Positions 12,748 through 16,067 of a stretch of DNA of 64,000 bases are shown piece after piece. Under the pieces are notes generated by a model that ran no database searches, was not told where the DNA came from, and saw only the letters and a program-made list of their open reading frames with translations. Origin of the DNA: a virus; IMG/VR virus record IMGVR_UViG_3300006793_000021, positions 1 through 64,000 of that record. One strand, written 5' to 3'. The position numbers were made by a program, and so were the translations under genes. How positions within the stretch are numbered: position 1 is the stretch's first letter; each line of letters begins with the position of its first letter.

Positions 12748-13920
12748 ATGTCAGAACTACTAGAAAGTCGCTGGCAGGAGACCAAAGGTGCACTAGTTGA
12801 AGGATTAACAGGAAATAAGAAATCTGTTATGGAAGCAACACTTGAAAATACTCGCAAGTATTTGTCAGAGAGTGCAACAGCAGGTGCAACTTCTGCAGGC
12901 AACGTAGCAACTCTAAATAGAGTTATTTTACCAGTTATTAGACGTGTAATGCCAACTGTGATCGCGAACGAGATCGTTGGTGTTCAGCCTATGACAGGAC
13001 CAGTGGGTCAAATCCACACATTACGAGTACGTTACGCTGATGCCTTTACAGGTACAGCAGGCGGATCAGCGGCAGCAGGCGAAGAGGCTTTAAGCCCATT
13101 CAAAATTGCTGAAGGCTATTCAGGTAATGCAAATGGTAAAGCAGATCCAACAGCATCAAAAGAAGGTGTTGCTGGTAACAGACTAAGCATTCAGATTTTA
13201 AAGCAAACAGTCGAAGCTAAGACACGTAAATTGTCAGCTCGCTGGACGTTTGAATCTGCACAAGATGCGCAGTCACAACATGGTATTGATGTTGAAGCAG
13301 AAATCATGGCAGCTCTTGCACAAGAGATCACTGCTGAGATTGATCAAGAAGTATTAACTTCATTAGCATCATTAGCAGGTACAGGTACTGATACTTACAA
13401 CCAAGCTGGTGTAAGTGGTACTGCAACATTCGTCGGTGACGAACATGCGGCATTAGCTGTATTAATTAACAGAGCGGCAAACAGAATTGCACAAAGAACA
13501 CGTAGAGGCGCAGGTAACTGGGCTGTTGTTTCTCCAGCAATTTTAACTGTCCTTCAATCAGCAACAACTTCAGCGTTTGCAAGAACAACTGAAGGTACGT
13601 TTGAAGCACCAACTAACACTAAAATGGTTGGTACATTGAACAACGCTATGAAGATCTATGTTAATACATACGCGGCAGACGACGATGTACTAGTTGGCTA
13701 CAAAGGCTCAAGTGAATCAGATGCGGCAGCATTCTATTGCCCATACATTCCACTAATGAGCTCAGGTGTTGTACTAGACCCAACTTCATTCGAACCAGTT
13801 GTATCATTTATGACTAGATACGGATATGTTGAGTTAAACAACACAGCGTCATCTTTAGGTAACGCGGCTGATTACGTTGAAAAAGTTGAAGTGAATAGCG
13901 GCAACTTATCATTCTCGTAA
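12748..13920 (+). CDS. gp23: Major capsid protein
   Basis: GVQPMTGPVGQI, VEAKTRKLSARWT, AFYCPYIPL, FMTRYG. Confidence 0.97.
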   Translation: MSELLESRWQETKGALVEGLTGNKKSVMEATLENTRKYLSESATAGATSAGNVATLNRVILPVIRRVMPTVIANEIVGVQPMTGPVGQIHTLRVRYADAFTGTAGGSAAAGEEALSPFKIAEGYSGNANGKADPTASKEGVAGNRLSIQILKQTVEAKTRKLSARWTFESAQDAQSQHGIDVEAEIMAALAQEITAEIDQEVLTSLASLAGTGTDTYNQAGVSGTATFVGDEHAALAVLINRAANRIAQRTRRGAGNWAVVSPAILTVLQSATTSAFARTTEGTFEAPTNTKMVGTLNNAMKIYVNTYAADDDVLVGYKGSSESDAAAFYCPYIPLMSSGVVLDPTSFEPVVSFMTRYGYVELNNTASSLGNAADYVEKVEVNSGNLSFS

Positions 13921-14045: not shown

Positions 14046-15062
14046 ATGAAACGGACTATAGTTATTCTGTCTGCTCTTTTCGCTTTGATATCATTTCAAG
14101 CATTTGCAGACACAAAGACCCTCGAAGAAAGAGTTGCTGATTTAGAAAAGTCAGCACCAACGTTACCAACAGGAATGTTTGTTAACGGAAACATTGAAGT
14201 ATATTACGATTCAGATACTTATGATTCAGATTTTGATACACGAGCAGAAGTGTTTGTAGGACTACAATCTCAATTAGACGGCCCTATTGATTGGGCAGGC
14301 GCAAGTACTAGATTTGACTCTCATTATTCTTTAGATACAACATTAAACAATAGCATTGTTGAAAAACAAATTGGCGTTGGTTTAGGAAATACTAGACTTT
14401 ATGTAGGCGAAACAGATGCACAAAGACTAGGATTTGCTAAAACAGCTAAAATTGGTTTACCACTTATTATTACAGAATCTAATAGTAGAATTGACCATAA
14501 AGAAAAACTTGTACTAACATTTGGCGGATGGGAAAATAATAACGAATTTGATTTTGATGAGCATAGACTAAGCAGAGATTTACCAATTGGATTTACTGTA
14601 GGTTATGATGCAGAAGCAAGTACAGTATACTTAGGTGGTACTGTAAGTTTAGCAGGATTTGCAGAACTATCATATATGCAAATTGGTAATAAAAACAATA
14701 TTACTGACAACGAACTAAATCAACAAGGTGTTGCTGTAGGTTCACAAGTATTACGTAGATACGGCATTCCAGTAGGATTTGGTGTTGAAGTATGGGACGA
14801 TAAGAATACAGGATTAGCAAAAGATGATCGTGTTGACCTTGGTCTTATGTACAACTATTCTAAAGAAACAATGTTTACTGCACATAGAGTATTAAACGAT
14901 GACTTAGGAACTGACGGTACATATCTTGGTGTAGTACATACAGTAGGACCAGTAGAAACAGGTTTCTATTATCATACAGATGTTAAAAATACAAGTGTAT
15001 GGACAGGTGCAACAACTGAGAGTGACGATAGTATTAAAGCTACTCTTAAGTACAAGTTTTAA
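14046..15062 (+). CDS. Outer-membrane porin-like beta-barrel protein
   Basis: Sec signal peptide (MKRTIVILSALFALISFQAFA), short coiled coil LEERVADLEK, alternating amphipathic strands, C-terminal LKYKF (BAM beta-signal). Confidence 0.8.
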   Translation: MKRTIVILSALFALISFQAFADTKTLEERVADLEKSAPTLPTGMFVNGNIEVYYDSDTYDSDFDTRAEVFVGLQSQLDGPIDWAGASTRFDSHYSLDTTLNNSIVEKQIGVGLGNTRLYVGETDAQRLGFAKTAKIGLPLIITESNSRIDHKEKLVLTFGGWENNNEFDFDEHRLSRDLPIGFTVGYDAEASTVYLGGTVSLAGFAELSYMQIGNKNNITDNELNQQGVAVGSQVLRRYGIPVGFGVEVWDDKNTGLAKDDRVDLGLMYNYSKETMFTAHRVLNDDLGTDGTYLGVVHTVGPVETGFYYHTDVKNTSVWTGATTESDDSIKATLKYKF

Positions 15063-15068
15063 TAAATA
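15061..15068 (+). promoter_or_regulatory. Late promoter variant AATAAATA
   Basis: 7/8 match, 6 nt before the riboswitch-like element. Confidence 0.55.
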
Positions 15069-15074
15069 ATATTA

Positions 15075-15115
15075 CGTTCAGCCAATAGGCCGGGAGTAGC
15101 ACAAGCGAAGGAACG
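15075..15115 (+). ncRNA. glnA-motif (glutamine-I) riboswitch aptamer
   Basis: CGUUC-A-GCC-aaua-GGC-CGGGAGUA-GC-acaa-GC-GAAG-GAACG: P1 CGUUC/GAACG, P2 hairpin, E-loop AGUA/GAA, P3. Matches the glnA three-way junction architecture. Confidence 0.75.
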
Positions 15116-15142
15116 CACTTAACCTTTAACAAGGAGAGTGTT

Positions 15143-15241
15143 ATGGATAATTACACGCTTTGGTGCTTTCAACGAATCATTAAACAGCACCATATAAAAA
15201 AAGTTAACTTTTTATTAAAAAAGAGGTTGACTTCTGCTTAA
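15143..15241 (+). CDS. 32-aa basic peptide downstream of the riboswitch
   Basis: AAGGAG SD, then MDNYTLWCFQRIIKQHHIKKVNFLLKKRLTSA*. Below the ORF-track cutoff. Confidence 0.5.
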   Translation: MDNYTLWCFQRIIKQHHIKKVNFLLKKRLTSA

Positions 15242-15255
15242 TAGTTTGTTATATT
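15227..15255 (+). promoter_or_regulatory. Sigma70-type promoter
   Basis: TTGACT, 17-nt spacer, TATATT with an extended -10 TG. Confidence 0.75.
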
Positions 15256-15261
15256 AAGTAC

Positions 15262-15504
15262 ATAAGTTAGACGACGGTGTAACTTAGATAGTGCAAGGAA
15301 GAGGAGTTACAGGCTCCGAACTTGACTAGTAGCTGTAGTGGCATTGCGTGACTGTGGAGACACAGAGACGTATTTCCGAACGTAACTGTTTGGTGCGAGG
15401 TTTGCGGGAACGACAGACAGACTGTTAACCGCATTGTTGGTATTCTGAAGTCCAACCTATCACTTTTATTAAAAGCTCGATACTTAATTGTGTCGGGCTT
15501 TTTT
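15262..15504 (+). ncRNA. Unidentified structured ncRNA (~240 nt)
   Basis: Bounded by a sigma70 promoter and a terminator; no sense ORF in the track; GC-richer than its flanks; several hairpins including a GNRA loop. Confidence 0.7.
15471..15504 (+). terminator. Rho-independent terminator (possibly bidirectional)
   Basis: AAAAGCTCGATAC-ttaatt-GTGTCGGGCTTTTTT. Confidence 0.85.
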
Positions 15505-15511
15505 CTTTTAT

Positions 15512-15519
15512 GATAAATA
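15512..15519 (+). promoter_or_regulatory. Late promoter variant GATAAATA
   Basis: Directly after the terminator and ahead of a structural operon. Confidence 0.65.
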
Positions 15520-15530
15520 CATATGTCAAA

Positions 15531-15598
15531 TAGTGTGCCGCAAGGCGGACTTATGCTGTTTAACCCACAGCGTAGCTCATAGAACGGGCATAGGACTA
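15531..15598 (+). promoter_or_regulatory. Structured 5' leader RNA
   Basis: GCC-GCAA-GGC, UAUGCUGU/ACAGCGUA and GCUC/GGGC stems, closed by UAGU/ACUA. Confidence 0.55.
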
Positions 15599-15617
15599 CT
15601 TAAATAGGAGAAAACAA

Positions 15618-16067
15618 ATGGGAAGACCACTTAATAAAAGATTATTCGGAACACCAACAGCTAATGGTTCTGAAGTTAAAGTAAACTTTCATAACGGCAC
15701 AGCAGTTAAAGAAGGTTATATCGTAAAGCAAAAAGGCTCAAAGAAATTTGTATGTGAAGAAATTGAAACAGCAGGCGAATTTACTTGTGTACTAACAACT
15801 GGTAAATTACCAGCGGCACTAGCGGCAGGCGAAATGTCAATTTCATTCAAAATGGATGATGCAGAAACATACACAGTAAGTAAAATTGCTGGACGTAAAG
15901 CAACATTATCAGCACCAAGTGCAACAGGTACTAACTTATATGACGGCAACAGTGTTGCTTGGAACTTTAGTACATCTGTAGCAGATGGAGCGGCACAAGT
16001 TGAAGAAGCAGGTGATGATAACACATTAACTGGTACTGATGACGACGACTTTACAGAAGACGCATAA
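15618..16067 (+). CDS. Putative virion structural protein
   Basis: 149 aa, strong SD, first gene after a late promoter. Confidence 0.6.
   Translation: MGRPLNKRLFGTPTANGSEVKVNFHNGTAVKEGYIVKQKGSKKFVCEEIETAGEFTCVLTTGKLPAALAAGEMSISFKMDDAETYTVSKIAGRKATLSAPSATGTNLYDGNSVAWNFSTSVADGAAQVEEAGDDNTLTGTDDDDFTEDA

What the first reader, a model, noticed from the sequence alone, without database searches (positions are those of the whole stretch)
15061..15241. Glutamine (glnA-type) riboswitch on a phage late transcript controlling a small basic peptide
Seen: a minimal aptamer at 15075-15115, then a stem CACUU-aa-CCUU/AAGG-a-GAGUG (15116-15140) that buries the AAGGAG SD of a 32-aa Lys/Arg/His-rich ORF. Known: glnA RNAs bind L-glutamine and in cyanobacteria control gifB, a small basic inactivator of glutamine synthetase; they also occur in marine metagenomes. 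Inferred: the phage senses glutamine late in infection and makes a peptide acting on nitrogen assimilation or lysis timing. The junction reads CGGGAGUA rather than the usual GGAAGUA, so specificity could differ.
Basis: partly seen in the sequence, partly recalled or inferred. Interest (0 to 1): 0.75.

Follow-up and report, generated by a model that had tools for sequence, protein, structure and literature searches.

The report
Phage glutamine riboswitch gating a micro-protein
A giant marine phage carries a genuine glutamine-sensing RNA switch at the start of its own late transcript that most likely turns on a conserved 32-residue basic helical peptide when nitrogen is plentiful; the sensor class is well known, while the peptide family and its job are not.

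Summary
Rfam's glutamine (glnA, type 1) model matches 15073-15119 at 42.3 bits (threshold 35). Across 108 distinct related aptamer-to-AUG sequences from viral contigs, P2 and P3 covary perfectly. The short helix joining the aptamer's 3' tail (from C60) to an RGUG box between SD and AUG also covaries (CACU-AGUG 34, CACC-GGUG 30, CACC-AGUG 0). This fits the published but unproven ON-switch model, in which glutamine captures C60 and melts the RBS-blocking helix. The unit has its own T4-type late-promoter box (AATAAATA, 6 nt upstream). The ORF shows a coding signature and belongs to a family of 34 distinct single-helix basic micro-proteins. One is an unannotated ORF behind the published Melnitz phage riboswitch. 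The odd junction G (position 24, E-loop) is confined to this lineage and is not a ligand contact, so changed specificity has no support. The peptide's function is unknown. A role as glutamine-synthetase inhibitor or lysis peptide is not supported. This scan has noted phage glutamine switches with small peptides before, on other DNA (87 notes). Verdict: a real, ordinary-class riboswitch regulating an undescribed micro-protein.

The parts
15061..15068 (+). T4-type late-promoter-like box AATAAATA, overlapping the double stop of the upstream 338-aa ORF; it ends 6 nt before the first aptamer base
   Evidence: Sequence. An NTAAATA box lies within 30 nt upstream of 63 of 96 usable viral aptamers, against 1.7% of random 30-nt windows; the modal distance is 6 nt. 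In the window, 15 of 29 NTAAATA boxes fall in the 6.9% of DNA that is non-coding, mostly 21-133 nt before structural ORFs. Promoter activity is inferred, not shown.
15073..15119 (+). Type 1 glutamine riboswitch aptamer (RF01739), minimal form: P1 5 bp, P2 3 bp with loop AAUA, P3 2 bp with loop ACAA, E-loop, C60 at 15116
   Evidence: 42.3 bits against a gathering score of 35. P2 pairs 1-3 and P3 pairs 1-2 are canonical in 108 of 108 distinct sequences, with 3-5 pair types each. Eight of 8 aptamer-bearing relatives pass the gathering score at 43.3-58.0 bits.
15094..15094 (+). G in place of the consensus A at junction position 24 (first E-loop position)
   Evidence: numbering from the crystallised sequence printed. 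A occurs in 125 and G in 2 of 127 IMG/VR matches, and both G cases belong to the window's lineage. All 137 bacterial matches have A. The G lineage scores 42.3-43.3 bits and A relatives score 45.3-58.0 bits.
15115..15141 (+). Expression platform: a hairpin that starts with G59/C60 of the aptamer and pairs the tail CACUU with GAGUG and the anti-SD CCUU with AAGG of the SD
   Evidence: It is the minimum-energy fold at -8.6 kcal/mol, z -2.7. Tail/box covariation: CACU-AGUG 34, CACC-GGUG 30, CACU-GGUG 3, CACC-AGUG 0, CAUC-GGUG 10, CAUC-GAUG 6. Across 108 platforms the median z is -3.1 and C60 is paired in 101. Without G59/C60 the energy changes from -8.1 to -4.1 kcal/mol.
15131..15136 (+). Shine-Dalgarno AAGGAG, 6 nt before the AUG
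   Evidence: At least 2 of the 4 SD core bases are paired in the platform fold of 101 of 108 sequences.
15143..15241 (+). 32-aa basic micro-protein gene (a family of 34 distinct peptides; signature aromatic-x-x-W-C-[FY], then a basic helix)
   Evidence: Coding signature: pairwise differences by codon position are 810/664/1199. In-frame synonymous codon pairs number 505, against 131 and 202 in the other frames. In-frame stops are 0, against 21 and 40. AlphaFold2 on 15 sequences gives one helix, residues 3-31, pLDDT 92.7.
15227..15255 (+). Sigma-70-like promoter (TTGACT-17-TATATT with TG) of the next unit (manA-like RNA); its -35 box lies inside codons 29-30 of the peptide ORF
   Evidence: TTGAC[AT] overlaps or abuts the ORF's 3' end in 9 of 12 family loci examined. 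This is the boundary of the cassette and is not shown to belong to the switch.

Best explanation
This is a self-contained late transcription unit of a jumbo T4-like marine phage. It consists of a late-promoter box, a minimal type 1 glutamine riboswitch, a translational expression platform and a 32-codon gene. When glutamine is low, the nucleotides just 3' of P1 (G59, C60 and the tail ACUU) pair with the GAGUGU box between SD and AUG, and CCUU pairs with the SD. The ribosome-binding site is then locked in a hairpin. When glutamine is high, the aptamer closes: P1 keeps G59 and the long-range G23-C60 pair takes C60. The hairpin loses about half its stability, the SD opens and the peptide is made, so this is an ON switch. 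The product is a cationic single-helix micro-protein of an undescribed family. Its target is unknown, and I think a binding partner other than glutamine synthetase is most likely. What is shown: family membership of the aptamer, covariation of P2, P3 and the tail/box helix, the coding signature of the ORF, and enrichment of the promoter box. What is inferred: glutamine binding by this G24 variant, the ON direction, promoter activity, and any function of the peptide.
For: RF01739 scores 42.3 bits against a threshold of 35, full length. Relatives score 43.3-58.0 bits. P2 and P3 are canonical in 108 of 108 sequences with several pair types, whereas partner shuffles reach at most 68-93 of 108. For the tail/box helix, 84 of 108 sequences have a fully complementary 4-mer between SD and AUG, against a shuffle mean of 57 and maximum of 67. 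The contingency counts are CACU-AGUG 34, CACC-GGUG 30 and CACC-AGUG 0. The hairpin is the minimum-energy fold. Platform stability is general: median z -3.1, and 87 of 108 have z below -2. Removing G59/C60 halves the stability, from -8.1 to -4.1 kcal/mol. The published structural and genetic work fits. Klahn et al. 2018 (passages) show that a type 1 switch turns IF17 synthesis on with glutamine. They postulate, from Ren et al., that the G23-C60 pair melts a short P1-attached helix that blocks the RBS. The ligand-contacting nucleotides named in Huang et al. 2019 (passage) are present in the window. ORF reality rests (codon-position bias, open frame) and: 124 of 131 aptamer contexts have an SD and start codon, there are 122 complete ORFs of 6-81 aa, and 119 of 119 that are 15 aa or longer are net positive. 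The late promoter box rests. A contig from an RNA library (X2, 268 nt, 4 differences) spans 15035-15301; this is weak because DNA carry-over is not excluded.
Against: Nothing here measures glutamine binding or regulation. The A24-to-G change hits a position that is A in 125 of 127 viral and 137 of 137 bacterial matches, and it lowers the model score. The aptamer in this lineage could therefore be weakened. The sequences carrying G are too close to each other (94-98% identical) to show selection since the change. P2 (3 bp) and P3 (2 bp) are at the short end of the family. The covariation sample was collected with a pattern that fixes P1, the junction and the first two tail bases (CA), so those positions say nothing. 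Many sequences are related, so shuffle controls overstate significance. The ON direction rests on analogy with gifB and on a 4 kcal/mol calculation. Exact TATAAATA is not enriched in the window (5 found, 8.9 expected); only the shorter NTAAATA box is enriched, and only in non-coding DNA. No homologue of the peptide has a known function.
Confidence: 0.75

Rival explanations
1. The aptamer of this lineage is crippled or re-tuned by the A24-to-G change. The unit would then be expressed constitutively (or stay off), or respond at a different glutamine concentration. The riboswitch is ancestral but no longer works as in its relatives.
For: Position 24 is A in 125 of 127 viral and 137 of 137 bacterial matches. 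The G lineage scores 42.3-43.3 bits and A-junction relatives 45.3-58.0. Position 24 lies in the E-loop that organises the junction.
Against: Everything else is intact: P1, P2, P3, G22, G23, C58-C60 and the platform. The G is shared by at least five distinct sequences (window, the L011 type, the L084 type, L166 and L203), so it is not a sequencing error. The ORF behind it stays open and conserved. Position 24 is not among the reported ligand contacts.
Confidence: 0.15
2. It is a glutamine OFF switch. Ligand binding locks the SD-like GAAGG of the aptamer into the E-loop. That frees the CCUU anti-SD to pair with the true SD, so the peptide is made only when glutamine is low.
For: The aptamer's 3' strand GAAGG (15107-15111) resembles an SD and could compete for the pyrimidine anti-SD (sequence). 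No experiment fixes the direction for any phage example.
Against: The covarying helix starts at C60 and includes G59, the nucleotides that the bound aptamer claims. This predicts melting on binding. The only tested type 1 and type 2 switches are ON switches. The full-length fold does not pair CCUU with GAAGG.
Confidence: 0.08
3. The 32-aa peptide is a phage analogue of the cyanobacterial glutamine-synthetase inactivating factors (IF7/IF17). It would shut down host nitrogen assimilation when glutamine is high.
For: It has the same regulatory logic and slot as gifB. Some viral cassettes of the same build do carry DUF4278 (IF17-like) YRG peptides: 26.5 and 30.5 bits against a cut-off of 25.3 for 2 of 3 tested. 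All 119 cassette peptides are basic.
Against: The window's peptide and its family have no DUF4278 match. A family member follows the Melnitz riboswitch, and the Melnitz paper states that neither OM43 nor the phage encodes glutamine synthetase (passage). The peptide is predicted to be one rigid helix.
Confidence: 0.1
4. The ORF is incidental. The aptamer would be a 3'-UTR element of the upstream 338-aa gene, or would control the downstream manA-like RNA and 149-aa gene. The Lys-rich tail would merely be the translation of the A-rich UP element and -35 box of the next promoter.
For: The last 14 codons overlap an A-rich stretch and a TTGACT -35 box. In the 50-aa-peptide lineage the homologous A-rich/TTGACT DNA is non-coding.
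Against: The frame is open in 15 of 15 family members with a third-position excess, while the other frames hold 21 and 40 stops. The INF[IL]L codons vary synonymously, and members without any TTGAC box keep the motif (L142, L163). An SD at the right spacing and the covarying box sit directly before the AUG. Three unrelated small ORFs occupy the same slot behind the same platform.
Confidence: 0.04

Closest known systems
Type 1 glutamine riboswitch of the Synechocystis gifB (IF17) leader (Klahn et al. 2018, PMC6212724; structure of the Synechococcus aptamer by Ren et al. 2015, known to me only through)
   Same: Same Rfam family. Same three-way junction, E-loop, G22/G23 and C58-C60. A short helix that begins at C60 and occludes the RBS. 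A small basic protein as product. Presumably ON with glutamine.
   Different: It is phage-borne and follows a T4-type late-promoter box, not an NtcA-controlled promoter. It has minimal P2 and P3, and G at position 24. The product is a 32-aa single helix without DUF4278. Here the P1-attached helix is supported by covariation, whereas for gifB it was a postulate.
Glutamine riboswitch of Methylophilales (OM43) phage Melnitz and of pelagimyophages (Buchholz et al. 2022, PMC9004378)
   Same: Closest cultured relative of the element. The aptamer and platform are 81% identical over 72 nt, the aptamer scores 52.8 bits, the hairpin is the same and a 32-aa ORF of the same family follows. It is a T4-like marine myovirus of a heterotroph.
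   Different: In Melnitz the unit follows the tmRNA gene and has no NTAAATA box directly upstream. The paper reads the switch as controlling the tmRNA, and the small ORF is not annotated. The window's unit lies in the head-gene cluster of a much larger phage.
Type 2 glutamine riboswitch (Downstream-peptide motif, RF01704) with DUF4278 peptides of marine picocyanobacteria (Weinberg et al. 2010; Huang et al. 2019)
   Same: A glutamine sensor directly in front of a very short ORF. An ON switch that probably frees the RBS. Nearly the same ligand pocket.
   Different: It has a pseudoknot fold and not a three-way junction. It is chromosomal and cyanobacterial, and its peptides carry YRG/DUF4278 repeats.

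Membership tests
Glutamine riboswitch type 1 (glnA RNA, RF01739) | Covariance-model score at or above Rfam's gathering score, over the whole model | tested here: met
   42.3 bits against 35, model positions 1-53 of 53, E 7.5e-6 for the window.
Glutamine riboswitch type 1 (glnA RNA, RF01739) | Three-way junction with P1, P2 and P3 kept by compensatory changes | tested here: met
   P2 pairs 1-3 and P3 pairs 1-2 are canonical in 108 of 108 distinct sequences with 3-5 pair types each, whereas partner shuffles reach at most 68-93. P1 was fixed by the search pattern, so it is uninformative.
Glutamine riboswitch type 1 (glnA RNA, RF01739) | Ligand-pocket nucleotides C1:G59, G2:C58 and G22, and the long-range pair G23-C60 | tested here: met
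   All are present in the window: C15075, G15076, G15092, G15093, C15114, G15115 and C15116. Their identity as contacts is taken from passages.
Glutamine riboswitch type 1 (glnA RNA, RF01739) | E-loop built from GAAGUA and GAAG | tested here: inconclusive
   The AGUA/GAAG core is intact, but position 24 is G and not A. A occurs in 125 of 127 viral and 137 of 137 bacterial matches. The effect on folding is unknown.
Glutamine riboswitch type 1 (glnA RNA, RF01739) | Selective binding of L-glutamine | not testable with these tools
   This needs in-line probing, ITC or NMR.
Glutamine riboswitch type 1 (glnA RNA, RF01739) | Translational platform: a short helix attached to P1, involving C60, that blocks the RBS | tested here: met
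   It is the minimum-energy fold. The tail/box helix covaries. C60 is paired in 101 of 108 platform folds. Stability falls from -8.1 to -4.1 kcal/mol without G59/C60. Regulation itself was not tested.
GS inactivating factor IF17 / DUF4278 (PF14105) | Match to the DUF4278 profile (YRG repeats) | tested here: not met
   The 32-aa peptide and another family member have no DUF4278 hit at E up to 1. YRG peptides from other viral cassettes do match.
T4-type late promoter | TATAAATA-like box a few bases upstream of the transcript start | tested here: inconclusive
   AATAAATA lies at 15061-15068, one mismatch from TATAAATA (consensus recalled). The NTAAATA box is present before 63 of 96 aptamers, against 1.7% background, and is enriched in non-coding DNA before structural ORFs of the window. 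Exact TATAAATA is not enriched. Transcript starts could not be read from contigs.

The most novel reading that the evidence does not exclude
The unit is one instance of a modular viral 'nitrogen checkpoint'. This would be a portable cassette of late promoter, type 1 glutamine switch and C60-tail/RGUG platform. It is exchanged among T4-like marine phages and the chromosomes of streamlined heterotrophs (SAR86, Pelagibacteraceae, OM43 phages). It gates at least 15 unrelated families of nitrogen-rich cationic micro-proteins. Because one host (OM43) is reported to lack glutamine synthetase, and because at least 16 of 82 cassettes sit directly behind the major head gene, these peptides would act on something other than GS. 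One possibility is that they are virion- or DNA-associated polycations, made only when nitrogen allows.
Probability: 0.25. Interest if true: 0.7.

Novelty: new member of a known kind. Interest (0 to 1): 0.42.

Why it matters
The sensor itself is textbook, and phage copies are already in print. Three things give the locus some value. First, at about 71 nt from first aptamer base to AUG it is one of the smallest complete natural glutamine switches. With its relatives it gives covariation evidence for the P1-attached, C60-containing helix, which the literature I read still calls a postulate ('mode of action remains unclear'). That makes the ON mechanism directly testable with a short RNA. Second, it shows that what these phage switches control is a set of tiny, mostly unannotated basic proteins. 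This includes an unannotated ORF in the cultured phage Melnitz, where the switch was read as controlling a tmRNA. That system can be grown, so the peptide's role can be tested. Third, together with the bacterial hits, it adds to the evidence that type 1 glutamine switches are common in marine heterotrophs and their phages and are not confined to cyanobacteria.

Tried and rejected
The full HMMER scan of 1.84 billion representatives then gave only 8 hits, all 29-55 aa, all metagenomic and at most named 'hypothetical'. The ESM Atlas gave nothing usable, with a best score of 0.76. Pfam and PHROGs gave nothing for the 32-aa peptide, the upstream 338-aa ORF or the downstream 149-aa ORF. Ren et al. 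2015 is not held, so the exact role of A24 could not be read. Supplements of the papers were not opened and may list phage or heterotroph examples. MAFFT aligned the variable loops poorly, so I counted pairs by position from the invariant anchors instead. Only assembled contigs were available from RNA libraries. They cannot show starts, strand or level, DNA carry-over is not excluded, and parts without cover mean nothing. The full-length thermodynamic fold does not reproduce the aptamer, as expected for a fold held by non-canonical pairs. The idea of a membrane-active lysis peptide was dropped because the helix is not amphipathic: muH is 0.073, against 0.204 for shuffles, and 91% of shuffles are higher. 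An intrinsic terminator in the platform was rejected because no U-run follows the hairpin. Neighbour censuses gave no single context. Upstream: major head protein 16, Hsp20 6 and SAM decarboxylase 6, of 82. Downstream: thymidylate synthase 12, peroxiredoxin 6 and tail fibre 4, of 76. No cultured phage holds a relative of the 149-aa protein.
Full report
What is there. The window is part of a 75,320-base viral record that CheckV rates about 21% complete. That implies a jumbo phage. Its major head gene (12748-13920, phrog_138, E 3.8e-101) is about 70% identical in DNA to those of PA5oct-, 121Q- and Rak2-like giant myoviruses. From 3898 to 57566 almost every large ORF is on the + strand, including four of 1706-3098 aa, so this is the structural module. 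The finding lies between a 338-aa ORF of unknown family (14046-15062) and a 149-aa ORF (15618-16067).

The observation. Rfam's covariance model for the glutamine riboswitch (RF01739) matches 15073-15119 at 42.3 bits, against a gathering score of 35, over the full model. It is the only copy in the record. In it, GCACUU (15115-15120) pairs with GAGUGU (15136-15141) and CCUU (15123-15126) pairs with AAGG (15131-15134), so the SD AAGGAG is buried. The ORF 15143-15241 encodes MDNYTLWCFQRIIKQHHIKKVNFLLKKRLTSA. The junction does read CGGGAGUA (15091-15098). All parts of the observation are confirmed.

Comparative evidence. Proteins flanking the site recovered 98 related viral loci, and 42 of them hold the aptamer segment. 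Combined, this gave 131 distinct aptamer contexts, and 108 distinct, N-free aptamer-to-AUG sequences. I counted pairs by position from the invariant anchors. P2 pairs 1-3 and P3 pairs 1-2 are canonical in 108 of 108, with 3-5 pair types each, whereas shuffling partners gives at most 68-93 of 108.

Beyond the aptamer, the four bases after P1 are complementary to a 4-mer between SD and AUG in 84 of 108 sequences (shuffle mean 57, maximum 67). The variable position covaries cleanly: CACU with AGUG 34 times, CACC with GGUG 30, CACU with GGUG 3 (wobble) and CACC with AGUG never. CAUC goes with GGUG (10) or GAUG (6). There are caveats. The pattern fixed P1, the junction and the first two tail bases. 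Many sequences are related. The other 24 of 108 use a different platform.

Folding each platform from G59 to the AUG gives a median of -8.8 kcal/mol and a median z of -3.1. C60 is paired in 101 of 108, and at least two SD core bases are paired in 101 of 108.

Mechanism. The passages I read in Klahn et al. 2018 show that a type 1 switch raises IF17 synthesis when glutamine binds. They state that the mode of action 'remains unclear'. Following Ren et al., they postulate that formation of the G23-C60 pair melts a short helix attached to P1 that blocks the RBS. The phage sequences fit that picture exactly: the covarying helix begins with C60 (15116) and, in the window, even with G59 (15115). Taking those two bases away lowers the hairpin's stability from -8.1 to -4.1 kcal/mol, and its z from -3.0 to -0.8. 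I therefore read the element as a translational ON switch. The direction is inferred and not shown.

A late unit of its own. Upstream of 63 of 96 usable aptamers there is an ATAAATA or CTAAATA box ending 5-13 nt (mode 6) before the first aptamer base. Only 1.7% of random 30-nt windows have one, and the box often follows a terminator. The window has AATAAATA at 15061-15068, overlapping the stop codons of the upstream ORF and ending 6 nt before C1. Within the window, 15 of 29 NTAAATA boxes on the + strand lie in the 6.9% of DNA that is non-coding, mostly 21-133 nt before structural ORFs. The match to the T4 late-promoter consensus is from my recall, and exact TATAAATA is not enriched. So 'late transcript' is supported in a sharper form: the switch probably sits at the very 5' end of a dedicated late RNA. 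RNA-library contigs cover the unit (X2: 268 nt spanning 15035-15301 with 4 differences). Being contigs, they show neither starts nor strand, and DNA carry-over is possible.

The peptide. Behind the same aptamer and platform, close relatives of this phage carry three unrelated small ORFs, of 32-33, 50 and 63-64 aa. Across the whole sample, 124 of 131 contexts have an SD and start codon. There are 122 complete ORFs of 6-81 aa (median 38), and all 119 that are 15 aa or longer are net positive. They fall into 15 clusters, and two of these are DUF4278 (IF17-like) YRG peptides.

The window's peptide belongs to the largest cluster, with 34 distinct members. In 15 aligned members W7 and L25 are invariant and C8 and I13 nearly so. 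Differences pile up at third codon positions (810/664/1199). In-frame synonymous codon pairs number 505, against 131 and 202 in the other frames, which also carry 21 and 40 stops. AlphaFold2 predicts one helix, residues 3-31, at pLDDT 92.7. The helix is not amphipathic. A profile search of 1.84 billion representatives finds 8 clusters, all 29-55 aa and all metagenomic. There is no Pfam, PHROG or Atlas lead.

The last codons overlap the A-rich region and the -35 box of the next promoter. Even so, the INF[IL]L motif varies synonymously and persists where no such box exists. It is therefore conserved as protein.

A cultured relative. The only isolates with similar DNA are the four Melnitz (OM43) phage records. 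There the aptamer (52.8 bits) lies 3' of the tmRNA gene. It is followed by the same hairpin (-11.2 kcal/mol, z -3.3) and by an unannotated 32-aa ORF, MTLYQQWCY.... That ORF aligns to the family profile (hhalign probability 83.6%, E 8e-6). Near-identical metagenomic peptides joined cluster 1. The record annotates a 33-aa ORF on the opposite strand instead. The paper (passages) reads the switch as controlling the tmRNA. The geometry favours control of the small ORF. The same paper states that neither OM43 nor Melnitz encodes glutamine synthetase, which weighs against a GS-inhibitor role for this family.

The junction variant. By the numbering of the crystallised RNA the G is at position 24, the first base of the E-loop strand. 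The reported glutamine contacts are C1:G59, G22 O2' and C58, with G23-C60 closing the pocket, and all are intact here. G occurs in 2 of 127 viral matches, both from the window's lineage, and in 0 of 137 bacterial matches. The lineage scores 42.3-43.3 bits against 45.3-58.0 for A-junction relatives. A change of ligand is therefore unsupported. A change of affinity, or partial loss of function, cannot be excluded.

Distribution. None of the 80 listed titles is cyanobacterial. They are SAR86, SAR116, Pelagibacteraceae, other Alpha- and Gammaproteobacteria and similar, some on contigs of 0.4-1.1 Mb. The pattern is biased to the CGUUC/GAACG form of P1, so this says nothing about cyanobacteria. Several phage peptide families recur there: '...DNPFYP' in SAR86 and the 64-aa NGNGTSGY family in a Pelagibacteraceae contig. 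The window's family does not.

The papers I saw (search listings and passages) mention RF01739 in cyanophages, in Melnitz-like phages and in SAR86. None of those passages analyses the platform or the peptides, and I did not see their supplements. Earlier notes of this scan describe similar switch-plus-peptide units in other phages. Two leads were partly borne out here: chromosomal copies in marine Gammaproteobacteria, and SAM decarboxylase as a frequent neighbour (6 of 82).

Verdict. This is a real type 1 glutamine riboswitch with a well-supported translational platform. It sits on its own late unit and gates a conserved but undescribed micro-protein. It is a new member of a known kind, of moderate interest, mainly as a compact test case for the ON mechanism and as a pointer to overlooked phage micro-proteins.

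Noticed in passing
window 15227-15502: A full-length manA-like RNA (15264-15466) scores 40.8 bits, below the gathering score of 55.2. It has its own sigma-70-like promoter (15227-15255) and a terminator (15471-15502). In relative L054 the same element passes the threshold (58.6 bits), and in L036 the slot holds three tRNA genes instead. It looks like a stand-alone ncRNA gene and not a 5' leader.
   Followed up: partly
window 15513-15620: A freshwater-2 RNA (RF02980, 67.9 bits) sits directly before the conserved 149-aa ORF and after an ATAAATA box (15513-15519). The segment is present in 89 of 98 related loci. The motif therefore appears to be the leader of a late structural-module gene of this phage group.
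   Followed up: partly
L348 (Melnitz MZ577097.1) 1500-1669: The published Melnitz glutamine riboswitch lies 3' of the tmRNA. It is followed by an SD-sequestering hairpin and an unannotated 32-aa ORF of the window's peptide family. The record annotates an opposite-strand 33-aa CDS there. Control of the tmRNA by the switch looks doubtful.
   Followed up: yes
L228-L347 (bacterial species genomes): The same aptamer core is abundant in marine heterotroph genomes: at least 120 stretches, many in tandem, and none of the 80 listed titles cyanobacterial. Some copies are followed by peptide families shared with phages. This is at odds with the 2018 statement that the class is exclusive to cyanobacterial genomes.
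   Followed up: partly
L010 and L087 (one contig), against window 15063-15454: A close relative lacks the aptamer, the 32-aa ORF and most of the manA-like RNA, joining the upstream ORF almost directly to the freshwater-2 leader. So the cassette is dispensable or recently gained.
   Followed up: partly
window 15227-15241 and 11 related loci: The stop codon or last codons of the peptide ORF overlap a TTGAC[AT] -35 box in 9 of 12 family loci examined. The meaning of this tight overlap between a translated ORF and the next promoter is unexplained.
   Followed up: partly
L119, L122, L154, L167, L196, L202, L205 and others: Several viral and bacterial loci carry two glutamine aptamers in tandem, 7-8 nt apart, before one small ORF.
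   Followed up: no
window 18425-44794: Four very large + strand ORFs (1706, 1838, 1831 and 3098 aa) follow the head genes. They were not analysed.
   Followed up: no
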